NCBI RefSeq assembly: GCF_024298765.1
Contig: NZ_CP101211.1
Strand: one strand, 5' to 3'
Source: Escherichia coli
GTDB lineage: Bacteria > Pseudomonadota > Gammaproteobacteria > Enterobacterales > Enterobacteriaceae
Length of the DNA stretch: 64,000 nucleotides
In this document: positions 51,001-54,000 of the stretch, piece after piece
Layout of the letters: each line of letters begins with the position of its first letter
Numbering within the stretch: position 1 is the stretch's first letter
Made by a program: the position numbers

Positions 51001-54000
51001 CTCCCAGTCTTCAACAACGCCAACAATTCTCAAGGGTTCGCAGGTTCTATAGGACTGTGTTGGATTACCGGGAAATTTTTTGTTCGTAAGATTCGGATCG
51101 TCTTCGAACGGTCCTGTTGGCTCAACTATGTATATGTAGCCGCGACCCTCGAGGCCAGACAGTGACATAGCAAGTTCAGCTCCCCAAACTGCTGGCTCCA
51201 TCAAGGCTGAAAAGTAGATGTGCTTAAGAATACGACCGTCCTCGAAATGAGAGATGAACCCTGTGGTTAGCAAGTCACCAATCGCCAAATTGGCTTTGGT
51301 TCCATGATAGAACGGTCCTTGCACCTGCTTGTAATTATCATGAGAGATGGGAATCCAATCTTTTACCATTTTAAGACCCTTAATTGTTGGGATTTGGCTG
51401 CATAACGTCGCTATCAATCGCGGAAAAGGCGTAGTGCGCGAAGCGAACGAAGCTTTTTGCCGTCGATTGCATAGCTTTGTTAACCCTTTTTCCAAATTTG
51501 ATAGCAATAGTTAATGTTTGAAGTAAAGTGTTGCTCAAAAACAACTTCGAAGGTATTTGGAATACTCGGGAAGAAAACATCCCCCTCTGGCTCGATGTCG
51601 ATCGTCGATAAGTGGAGCGTAGAGGCCATGGGTAATGTTTCTCGGTAAATTTCTCCGCCACCAGACACTATAACGTGACCGGTGAATTCAGCTAGCCTGT
51701 CCATGGCCTCTTCGATTGACTGAAATACAACTACATTGTCATCATTTGATGTCCAACCTGAGCGGGTAACGACCGCGTATTTCCTATTGGGGAGTGCGCC
51801 CATAGATTCAAACGTCTTGCGACCCACCAGAAGCCACTGATTGTAGGTCAATGCTTTAAAAAGTAGCTGCTCCCCTTTCGCGGACCAGGGTATGTCTGGA
51901 CCGCAACCAATCACGCCGTTTTTCGCTTTCGCAGCCATCAATGATACTTTCAAGGTTCTCATCCTGGGTTAACTTTGTTTTAGGGCGACTGCCCTGCTGC
52001 GTAACATCGTTGCTGCTCCATAACATCAAACATCGACCCACGGCGTAACGCGCTTGCTGCTTGGATGCCCGAGGCATAGACTGTACAAAAAAACAGTCAT
52101 AACAAGCCATGAAAACCGCCACTGCGCCGTTACCACCGCTGCGTTCGGTCAAGGTTCTGGACCAGTTGCGTGAGCGCATACGCTACTTGCATTACAGTTT
52201 ACGAACCGAACAGGCTTATGTCCACTGGGTTCGTGCCTTCATCCGTTTCCACGGTGTGCGTCACCCGGCAACCTTGGGCAGCAGCGAAGTCGAGGCATTT
52301 CTGTCCTGGCTGGCGAACGAGCGCAAGGTTTCGGTCTCCACGCATCGTCAGGCATTGGCGGCCTTGCTGTTCTTCTACGGCAAGGTGCTGTGCACGGATC
52401 TGCCCTGGCTTCAGGAGATCGGAAGACCTCGGCCGTCGCGGCGCTTGCCGGTGGTGCTGACCCCGGATGAAGTGGTTCGCATCCTCGGTTTTCTGGAAGG
52501 CGAGCATCGTTTGTTCGCCCAGCTTCTGTATGGAACGGGCATGCGGATCAGTGGGCACTGTTGCAAAGTTAGCGATGAGGCAGCCTTTTGTCTTATTCAA
52601 AGGCCTTACATTTCAAAAACTCTGCTTACCAGGCGCATTTCGCCCAGGGGATCACCATAATAAAATGCTGAGGCCTGGCCTTTGCGTAGTGCACGCATCA
52701 CCTCAATACCTTTGATGGTGGCGTAAGCCGTCTTCATGGATTTAAATCCCAGCGTGGCGCCGATTATCCGTTTCAGTTTGCCATGATCGCATTCAATCAC
52801 GTTGTTCCGGTACTTAATCTGTCGGTGTTCAACGTCAGACGGGCACCGGCCTTCGCGTTTGAGCAGAGCAAGCGCGCGACCATAGGCGGGCGCTTTATCC
52901 GTGTTGATGAATCGCGGGATCTGCCACTTCTTCACGTTGTTGAGGATTTTACCCAGAAACCGGTATGCAGCTTTGCTGTTACGACGGGAGGAGAGATAAA
53001 AATCGACAGTGCGGCCCCGGCTGTCGACGGCCCGGTACAGATACGCCCAGCGGCCATTGACCTTCACGTAGGTTTCATCCATGTGCCACGGGCAAAGATC
53101 GGAAGGGTTACGCCAGTACCAGCGCAGCCGTTTTTCCATTTCAGGCGCATAACGCTGAACCCAGCGGTAAATCGTGGAGTGATCGACATTCACTCCGCGT
53201 TCAGCCAGCATCTCCTGCAGCTCACGGTAACTGATGCCGTATTTGCAGTACCAGCGTACGGCCCACAGAATGATGTCACGCTGAAAATGCCGGCCTTTGA
53301 ATGGGTTCATGTGCAGCTCCATCAGCAAAAGGGGATGATAAGTTTATCACCACCGACTATTTGCAACAGTGCCACGCAAAGACGTAATGAGCAGTGTATC
53401 CCCTGCCACAATACCCTCTTCAGGGATGCTGTCAGTGGACGTCCAGTACTGACCCGCCAGCAAAGAATGAAATCGCTCTAAACGGTCAATGCTATTTTTG
53501 CTGACCAGGTCACCCATATACTTTTCCTTCCAGATTCGTGTGTTAGGTGAATCATACCAGATTGCCCTTGCCGTCTAATAACGCAGAAAACTGTGAATCC
53601 AAAATTCCTTAAATTCAAACCTGTCCAATATAAAAGATGGCTCTTTTTCTTATCCAGTGTTAAGCGATAATGCTCAATTTTATTTCATTATTGTCAGAAT
53701 CAAAATAATCTGAAAATAAAAAAGGCTTCAGAATTGAAGCCTCTATATTATACAACGTGAATGTATTTTATTTATCTTTCACCGGGTTCATTTCCCAGTA
53801 TCTTTCACGTACGTTTTCTTGGCAATGGTCCGCTCGCTCCGGCGTGTCCCTTTTACGAGTAGCAAATGCTTCAATTACGGCATTCAAGTCTTTTTCTTTG
53901 ATTTTAGATCCAACAGGCAAGTTTTCTTCAAACTCAGTCCTTACCAGTTCTTTCGTTTTTTTATAATCGGTTTCACTTTGGATTTCAGGTTTTAAACAAA

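What the first reader, a model, noticed from the sequence alone, without database searches (positions are those of the whole stretch)
53374..53513. Right boundary: a backbone gene truncated by the last IS26
A minus-strand ORF starting at 53513 runs for about 46 codons into the outer end of IS26 copy 11. The intact gene in a related plasmid would define the original insertion or deletion point of the resistance region.
Basis: seen in the sequence. Interest (0 to 1): 0.25.

Follow-up and report, generated by a model that had tools for sequence, protein, structure and literature searches.

The report
IS26-truncated stub of IncHI2 backbone gene
This is the dead 48-codon start of a large plasmid backbone gene of unknown function, cut off by the insertion sequence IS26; the same scar is found in hundreds of sequenced IncHI2 resistance plasmids, so it is an ordinary inherited lineage marker.

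Summary
The minus-strand ORF starts at ATG 53517, not 53513. It has 48 backbone codons (53374-53517), then reads 8 codons into IS26 copy 11 (52554-53373) and stops at 53347.

The 144 nt are the 5' end of a 3,336-bp (1,111-aa) hypothetical gene. That gene is intact in mcr-9/CTX-M-9-type IncHI2 plasmids (e.g. OW849475.1, 191429-194764) and in IncHI1, always beside umuDC.

The IS26 junction is not the original entry point of the resistance region. Related plasmids show a multi-step history:
- A Tn1721-type transposon inserted, with TTTAA duplication, in a different ORF 4.4 kb away.
- A 3,825-bp backbone deletion fused gene nt 719 to a point 26 bp from that transposon end (pSA186_MCR1 state).
- An IS26-associated deletion of 3,632 bp then left IS26 between a truncated intI1 and gene nt 144.

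The net backbone loss against the intact reference is 4,421 bp. The exact junction occurs in 316 PLSDB plasmids, including pSTM6-275. The window lineage also carries an inversion, so the left and right boundaries are not a matched pair.

The intact protein matches no known family or fold. This is an ordinary, already annotated feature of low interest.

The parts
53374..53517 (-). 5' 144 nt (codons 1-48) of the 1,111-aa IncHI backbone gene, a truncated remnant
   Evidence: 100% identical to nt 1-144 of the longer ORFs in pSA186_MCR1 and pQnrB4_020042. It has 2 mismatches to the intact 3,336-bp gene of OW849475.1 (tblastn).
53347..53517 (-). Chimeric 56-codon ORF: 48 backbone codons plus 8 codons and a stop inside IS26
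   Evidence: The same ORF is annotated as hypothetical protein WP_152919720.1 in pSTM6-275 and pR18.0877_278k.
52554..53373 (-). IS26 copy 11, 820 bp. tnp26 is on the minus strand (52606-53310), so the transposase-proximal end abuts the gene stub.
   Evidence: Exact IRs GGCACTGTTGCAAA at both ends. It is identical to the other complete copies. There is no 8-bp target duplication: GATCAGTG on the left and ACGCAAAG on the right.
52109..52553 (+). 5' 445 bp of intI1 (class 1 integrase) truncated by the inner end of IS26 copy 11. The dfrA14-arr-2-cmlA cassette array lies to its left.
   Evidence: ORF translation. Window 51401-52553 equals pSA186_MCR1 L006 13929-12777.
53518..53767 (-). Retained upstream intergenic region of the stub. 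It holds an SD-like GGAAGGA, consensus promoter-like sites, and a terminator-like hairpin of the upstream gene at 53721-53744.
   Evidence: These are consensus matches only, not evidence of function.
53768..56762 (.). Intact flanking IncHI2 backbone: two hypothetical genes (53768-54124 and 54274-54891, minus strand), umuD (55085-55519, plus) and umuC (55503-56762, plus)
   Evidence: The same gene order sits next to the intact gene in IncHI2 and IncHI1.

Best explanation
The fragment is a non-functional 5' stub (codons 1-48) of a conserved 1,111-aa IncHI backbone gene of unknown function. An IS26-associated deletion left it at the edge of the multiresistance region.

The history reconstructed from related plasmids has four steps:
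1. A Tn1721-family transposon inserted, with a 5-bp TTTAA duplication, in a small ORF two genes downstream of the big gene.
2. A 3,825-bp backbone deletion with 3-bp AAG microhomology fused gene nt 719 to a point 26 bp from the transposon's inverted repeat. This is the pSA186_MCR1 state.
3. An IS26 sitting in intI1 removed the adjacent 3,632 bp: the 3' part of intI1, the mcp end of Tn1721, the 26 bp, and gene nt 145-719. This put IS26 directly against nt 144 without a target duplication. The route was either intramolecular replicative transposition or recombination with a second IS26.
4. This junction was inherited by, or spread through IS26 recombination among, a large E. coli/Salmonella-associated IncHI2 lineage, while the interior of the resistance region kept being reshuffled.

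Steps 1 to 3 are shown as sequence states in related plasmids. Their order and the transposition chemistry are inferred.
For: - Identity of the stub: 48/48 aa and 144/144 nt match the 5' end of longer ORFs. The intact gene is 3,336 bp in 298 plasmids.
- Synteny: the order umuDC, two hypothetical genes, then this gene is conserved in IncHI2 and IncHI1.
- pSA186_MCR1 state: pSA186_MCR1 and pQnrB4_020042 carry gene nt 1-719, then the 26 bp GTTTAAGTCCATCGGAAGGTATTTAA, then the Tn1721-type IR GGGGGAACCGCAGAATTCGG.... In the intact reference the 26 bp lie 3,825 bp downstream of nt 719, inside ORF AI2658V1_4741.
- Target duplication: the other Tn1721 IR abuts TTTAAGATTTTGG of the same ORF, giving a TTTAA duplication.
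- Size of the IS26 deletion: the window flanks of IS26 copy 11 are colinear with pSA186_MCR1, and IS26 replaces exactly L006 9145-12776, which is 3,632 bp.
- No 8-bp duplication flanks IS26 copy 11.
- Spread: the exact junction is in 316 PLSDB plasmids, including pSTM6-275, whose inner IS26 flank differs (sul1 instead of intI1).
- No other piece of the gene is present in the window.
- The AlphaFold model puts residue 48 inside a beta-strand (41-50) of the first domain, so the stub cannot fold alone.
Against: - No plasmid was found with IS26 in intI1 while the Tn1721 end and gene nt 1-719 are still present, so the immediate precursor is unsampled.
- The rare pQnrB4-type junction (IS26 57 bp inside the Tn1721 end, 7-8 plasmids) shows that other IS26 routes to this boundary exist.
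- No intact copy carrying the window's own allele (Ser9) was seen. The closest intact genes differ at 2 of the first 144 nt.
- The order of events 1 and 2 is not established.
- Expression of the stub was not tested.
Confidence: 0.87

Rival explanations
1. IS26 simply inserted into an intact gene. The rest of the gene lies on the other side of this or another IS26, so the junction marks the primary insertion point of the resistance region.
For: IS26 does abut the gene, and an intact gene exists elsewhere.
Against: - There is no 8-bp duplication.
- The inner flank is intI1, not the gene.
- No other part of the gene is in the window.
- Every sampled plasmid with the nt 1-144 remnant had a single match to the gene.
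- Intermediates with nt 1-719 plus a Tn1721 end exist.
Confidence: 0.02
2. The deletion arose in two steps rather than by one intramolecular transposition. A second IS26 inserted at gene nt 144 with a duplication. Homologous recombination between the two directly oriented IS26 copies (loss of a translocatable unit) then removed the 3.6 kb between them. Alternatively, the window plasmid acquired the finished junction from another IncHI2 plasmid by recombination through IS26 and backbone homology.
For: - The final structure is identical under both routes.
- Eight of the eleven IS26 copies in the window share one orientation and all are 100% identical, which gives ample substrate.
- The inner flank of this IS26 differs between plasmids that share the outer junction.
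- IS26 recombination and inversion are documented in this lineage (PMC9019673; PMC5923156).
Against: No plasmid was sampled with an IS26 flanked on both sides by gene sequence. The classes seen among 60 evenly spaced rows of 697 records were full length, nt 1-719, nt 1-144, or cut by a record end.
Confidence: 0.3
3. The stub is functionally relevant. Either the 56-aa chimeric peptide acts as a small protein, or the retained promoter reads through into tnp26 (same strand) and raises IS26 transposase expression at this boundary.
For: - The start codon, an SD-like GGAAGGA and promoter-like hexamers upstream are retained.
- The stub and tnp26 are co-directional.
- The ORF is kept unchanged in 316 plasmids and is annotated as a CDS.
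Against: - The conservation is explained by recent common descent, since the flanks are 100% identical.
- All homologues of the 48 aa that were examined are N-termini of proteins of about 1,100 aa.
- The truncation falls within a beta-strand of the first domain.
- The last 8 codons are accidental IS26 sequence.
- The promoter hits are consensus matches only: 5 found against 2.4 expected.
Confidence: 0.04

Closest known systems
Right-hand IS26 boundary of the resistance region of pSTM6-275 (NZ_CP019647.1; IncHI2 subtype 3, PMC5923156) and of pR18.0877_278k, pPJ-T16-250kb and similar plasmids
   Same: The IS26/gene-nt-144 junction is identical, the 171-bp chimeric ORF (WP_152919720.1) is identical, and the flanking backbone is the same at 100% identity.
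   Different: The DNA on the inner side of the IS26 differs: truncated sul1 of In27 in pSTM6-275, and truncated intI1 of a dfrA14-arr-2-cmlA integron here.
pSA186_MCR1 (NZ_CP022735.1) arrangement: gene nt 1-719, 26 bp, then the Tn1721 end
   Same: The backbone allele is the same (144/144 nt). The intI1-dfrA14 integron next to the boundary is the same. The flanks of IS26 copy 11 are colinear with it.
   Different: pSA186_MCR1 keeps 3,632 bp that IS26 has replaced in the window. It has one contiguous resistance region bounded by Tn1721 IRs with TTTAA duplication, whereas the window lineage has it split by an inversion.
IS26-mediated adjacent deletion by intramolecular replicative transposition (described for IS26/IS6-family elements by Harmer & Hall and by He et al. 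2015; from my own knowledge, with IS26 replicative transposition in this plasmid lineage reported in PMC9019673)
   Same: IS26 is retained, the DNA next to one end is lost, there is no 8-bp duplication, and the flanks are otherwise colinear with the ancestor.
   Different: The mechanism is inferred from the end product only. Recombination between two IS26 copies gives the same product.
Intact 1,111-aa IncHI backbone protein (CAH3982106.1 in OW849475.1; WP_000502663.1 in IncHI1 p100063-3)
   Same: The window stub matches its first 48 residues: 47/48 against IncHI2 and 39/48 against IncHI1.
   Different: 95.7% of the protein is missing in the window. The intact protein itself is uncharacterised.

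Membership tests
IS26 (IS6 family insertion sequence) | 820-bp element with 14-bp perfect terminal inverted repeats GGCACTGTTGCAAA | tested here: met
   52554-53373 is 820 bp with both IRs exact. It is 100% identical to 9 other complete copies.
IS26 (IS6 family insertion sequence) | Single transposase gene tnp26 (234 aa) | tested here: met
   An ORF on the minus strand spans 52606-53310. The same sequence is annotated as IS26 family transposase WP_001067855.1 in relatives.
Product of an IS26-associated deletion | No 8-bp target-site duplication flanking the element | tested here: met
   GATCAGTG on the left and ACGCAAAG on the right.
Product of an IS26-associated deletion | Flanks colinear with a longer ancestral arrangement, with a contiguous segment missing next to the IS | tested here: met
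   Window 51401-52553 and 53374-56000 equal L006 13929-12777 and 9144-6518. The 3,632 bp between them are replaced by IS26.
Product of an IS26-associated deletion | Formed by intramolecular replicative transposition rather than recombination between two IS26 copies | not testable with these tools
   Both routes give the same sequence, and no double-IS26 intermediate was seen among the sampled rows.
5' remnant of the IncHI 1,111-aa backbone gene | Sequence identity to the 5' end of the intact gene, starting at the same ATG | tested here: met
   142/144 nt match OW849475.1, and 144/144 match the nt 1-719 forms.
5' remnant of the IncHI 1,111-aa backbone gene | Same genomic neighbourhood as the intact gene (umuDC and two small hypothetical genes upstream) | tested here: met
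Tn1721-family (Tn3 superfamily) insertion as primary entry of the resistance region | 38-bp terminal inverted repeats and a 5-bp target duplication | tested here: met
   This is met in relatives only: IRs at L006 9746 and L009 38241-38278, with TTTAA on both sides. In the window the gene-side IR is deleted, and the other IR lies outside the window.
Independent small protein-coding gene | Own stop codon and homologues of similar length | tested here: not met
   The stop lies 27 nt inside IS26. Homologues are the N-termini of proteins of 1,100-1,190 aa. The cut falls within strand 41-50 of the model.
Kiwa KwaB / DUF4868 (considered for the intact protein) | Significant match to the DUF4868 profile | tested here: inconclusive
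   PADLOC gives E=0.003, 14.9 bits, residues 752-822 only. Pfam gives no match. The protein is not filed as a member.

The most novel reading that the evidence does not exclude
The gene destroyed here founds an uncharacterised protein family of about 1,100 aa. The family is spread on mobile elements across Proteobacteria and has no detectable known domain or fold. Its loss (full-length gene in 298 plasmids, truncated in about 400) may have contributed to the success of the E. coli/Salmonella IncHI2 lineage, for example by removing a costly or host-restricting function. Alternatively, the retained promoter may drive read-through into tnp26 and make this boundary IS26 unusually active.
Probability: 0.06. 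Interest if true: 0.4.

Novelty: already known. Interest (0 to 1): 0.1.

Why it matters
The feature has practical but modest value.
- The IS26/nt-144 junction is a stable, easily scored marker shared by 316 sequenced plasmids. It separates this IncHI2 lineage from the lineage with the intact gene and from the rarer nt-719/Tn1721 forms, so it could be used for plasmid tracking.
- The reconstruction shows that IS26-bounded edges of resistance regions can be tertiary scars, and should not be read as the primary insertion site.
- The only open biological question it touches is the function of the lost 1,111-aa protein. That question is independent of this window.

Tried and rejected
- **Function of the intact gene.** Sequence searches gave nothing usable:
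  - Pfam, NCBIfam and PHROGs: no match.
  - PADLOC: only a weak KwaB/DUF4868 hit, E=0.003.
  - PDB sequence search: nothing below E=0.5.
- **Structure of the intact protein.** The AlphaFold2 model has pLDDT 77.8. Fold searches gave the following:
  - Foldseek against PDB: no hit with E<=0.001.
  - BFVD: one uncharacterised siphovirus protein.
  - The afdb50 library was unavailable.
- **Conserved downstream partner gene.** None was found.
- **Genomic context of distant homologues.** It showed only generic mobile-element neighbourhoods: an N6/N4 methyltransferase, HigB, DUF3846, Lar and an integrase.
- **Literature.** Papers on pSTM6-275 and on the MRCP/pOYZ4 lineage describe the IS26-rich variable regions, but not this truncated gene.
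- **pQnrB4-type junction as direct precursor.** I considered this and rejected it. The inner flank of the window's IS26 is intI1, which is colinear with pSA186_MCR1 and not with the pQnrB4 arrangement.

Full report
**Observation.** Window 52554-53373 is a complete 820-bp IS26 with exact 14-bp terminal repeats. It is the last of ten complete copies and one truncated copy, and all are 100% identical. Immediately outside it, the minus strand carries an ORF whose ATG is at 53515-53517. The ORF has 48 codons of non-IS sequence (53374-53517), then 8 codons of IS26 sequence and a stop at 53347. The replicon is an IncHI2 plasmid. The next genes are two small hypothetical genes, umuD and umuC, and the region is 100% identical to hundreds of IncHI2A-typed conjugative plasmids from E. 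coli, Salmonella and Enterobacter.

**Identity of the truncated gene.** tblastn of the 48 residues hits 1,078 plasmid records. In mcr-9/CTX-M-9-type IncHI2 plasmids such as OW849475.1, the same start codon opens a 3,336-bp ORF of 1,111 aa at 191429-194764, in the same position relative to umuDC. IncHI1 plasmids have an orthologue of the same length (39/48 identical over the stub) in the same synteny. The window therefore keeps nt 1-144, which is 4.3% of the gene. Megablast with the intact gene found 697 plasmids carrying some of it. Of these, 298 carry at least 80% of it. The rest carry truncated copies that fall into two classes, nt 1-719 and nt 1-144. In a listing of 60 evenly spaced rows, these made up about 10% and about 45% respectively. 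No other piece of the gene is present in the window.

**The boundary is inherited and shared.** A 160-bp probe spanning the junction (80 bp of IS26 and 80 bp of stub) is fully covered in 316 PLSDB records. One of them is pSTM6-275, typed IncHI2 subtype 3 by its authors (PMC5923156). Others are plasmids of the MRCP/pOYZ4 group, typed ST2 by their authors (PMC9019673). In pSTM6-275 the inner flank of that IS26 is a truncated sul1, while here it is a truncated intI1. The outer junction is therefore fixed while the interior is exchanged, as expected for IS26-rich regions. RefSeq already annotates the 171-bp chimeric ORF as hypothetical protein WP_152919720.1.

**How the boundary arose.**
- *The nt 1-719 state.* Plasmids of this class (pSA186_MCR1, pQnrB4_020042) carry the same allele as the window, 144/144 nt. 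In them the gene runs to nt 719. It is followed by 26 bp (GTTTAAGTCCATCGGAAGGTATTTAA) and then by a Tn1721-type 38-bp inverted repeat and the mcp gene.
- *Origin of the 26 bp.* In the intact reference these 26 bp lie 3,825 bp further on, inside the small ORF AI2658V1_4741. This lineage therefore has a 3,825-bp backbone deletion. Both deletion ends finish in AAG, a 3-bp microhomology. Because the deletion ends 26 bp short of the IR, it was not made by the transposon end itself. That last point is an inference.
- *The other transposon end.* The other Tn1721 IR, on the tet(A) side, abuts TTTAAGATTTTGG of the same ORF. This gives a 5-bp TTTAA duplication. The resistance region therefore originally entered as a Tn3-family insertion in that ORF, not in the 1,111-aa gene.
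- *The IS26 step.* The two flanks of IS26 copy 11 in the window are colinear with pSA186_MCR1. Window 51401-52553 equals L006 13929-12777, and window 53374-56000 equals L006 9144-6518 at 100%. IS26 replaces exactly 3,632 bp. That segment comprises the 3' 569 bp of intI1, the integron/Tn1721 junction, mcp, the IR, the 26 bp, and gene nt 145-719.
- *Signature.* There is no 8-bp duplication around the IS26 (GATCAGTG and ACGCAAAG). This is the signature of an IS26-associated deletion, made either by intramolecular replicative transposition or by recombination between two direct copies.
- *Net loss.* Compared with the intact reference, the backbone lacks OW849475.1 190200-194620, which is 4,421 bp. 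This covers gene nt 145-3336, the 516-bp ORF AI2658V1_4742 and the first 65 bp of AI2658V1_4741.

**A rarer variant.** In 7-8 plasmids IS26 sits 57 bp inside the Tn1721 end (pQnrB4-type). This shows that IS26 has attacked the edge more than once.

**Left and right boundaries are not a pair.** In pSA186_MCR1 the resistance region is one block between the two Tn1721 IRs. In the window and its close relative pR18.0877_278k, the arrangement differs. The backbone from ORF_4741 through the cytosine methyltransferase, DUF1173 and DUF4942 genes, plus the tet(A) side of the region, is inverted relative to umuDC. The breakpoints lie inside the resistance region and between a hypothetical gene (window 5283-5948) and hns. 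The left edge of the window's region is an IS1 at 5977-6744. IS26-mediated inversions in this lineage have been described (PMC9019673; PMC5923156).

**Is the stub functional?** Probably not.
- Every examined homologue of the 48 residues is the N-terminus of a protein of about 1,100-1,190 aa.
- In an AlphaFold2 model of the intact protein (mean pLDDT 77.8), residues 1-16 are disordered. Residue 48 lies within beta-strand 41-50 of the first domain.
- The last 8 codons are accidental IS26 sequence.
- The stub keeps an SD-like sequence and consensus promoter-like sites and is co-directional with tnp26, so read-through into the transposase gene is conceivable. This is untested, and I rate it unlikely to matter.

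**Verdict.** The feature is an ordinary, already annotated, lineage-wide IS26 deletion scar. It is not novel and is of low interest beyond its use as a lineage marker.

Noticed in passing
window 1-6744, compared with L005, L009, L010 and L017: The backbone at the left of the window (cytosine methyltransferase, DUF1173, DUF4942, two hypothetical genes) is inverted relative to umuDC when compared with pSA186_MCR1 and OW849475.1. The single Tn1721-bounded resistance region of pSA186_MCR1 is split in two in this lineage. The window's region starts at an IS1 (5977-6744) that sits at an inversion breakpoint.
   Followed up: partly
[not shown]
   Followed up: partly
window 33419-34200 and 37539-37552: One IS26 copy is truncated: 782 bp, lacking 38 bp at one end. 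A lone 14-bp IS26 terminal repeat lies 3.3 kb away, so the pair of IR matches 33419/37552 is not one interrupted IS26.
   Followed up: partly
window 27336-29865 and 37867-40396: An IS26-890 bp-IS26 module occurs twice with the same internal flanks (CGCTTAAA and TTCCTGGC). The second copy is flanked by CAATTTTG on both outer sides, like the target duplication of a composite insertion. GGATTGAA/TTCAATCC is split between the IS26 at 29865 and the IS26 at 49484, which suggests an IS26-mediated inversion.
   Followed up: no
window 53592-54272, compared with L005 44838-45493: The intergenic region and the 118-aa putative exported protein gene (53768-54124) give no megablast match to the mcr-9-type IncHI2 reference, although both sides match at about 96%. 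This is a locally divergent backbone segment between the two lineages.
   Followed up: no
PLSDB records NZ_KX434883.1 (39 kb), NZ_CP036311.1 (102 kb) and NZ_MN476096.1 (122 kb): The nt 1-144 stub also appears in records much smaller than a typical IncHI2 plasmid, and in NZ_CP036311.1 the full IS26/stub junction was matched. These may be partial sequences, deletion derivatives or cointegrates that carry the boundary along.
   Followed up: no
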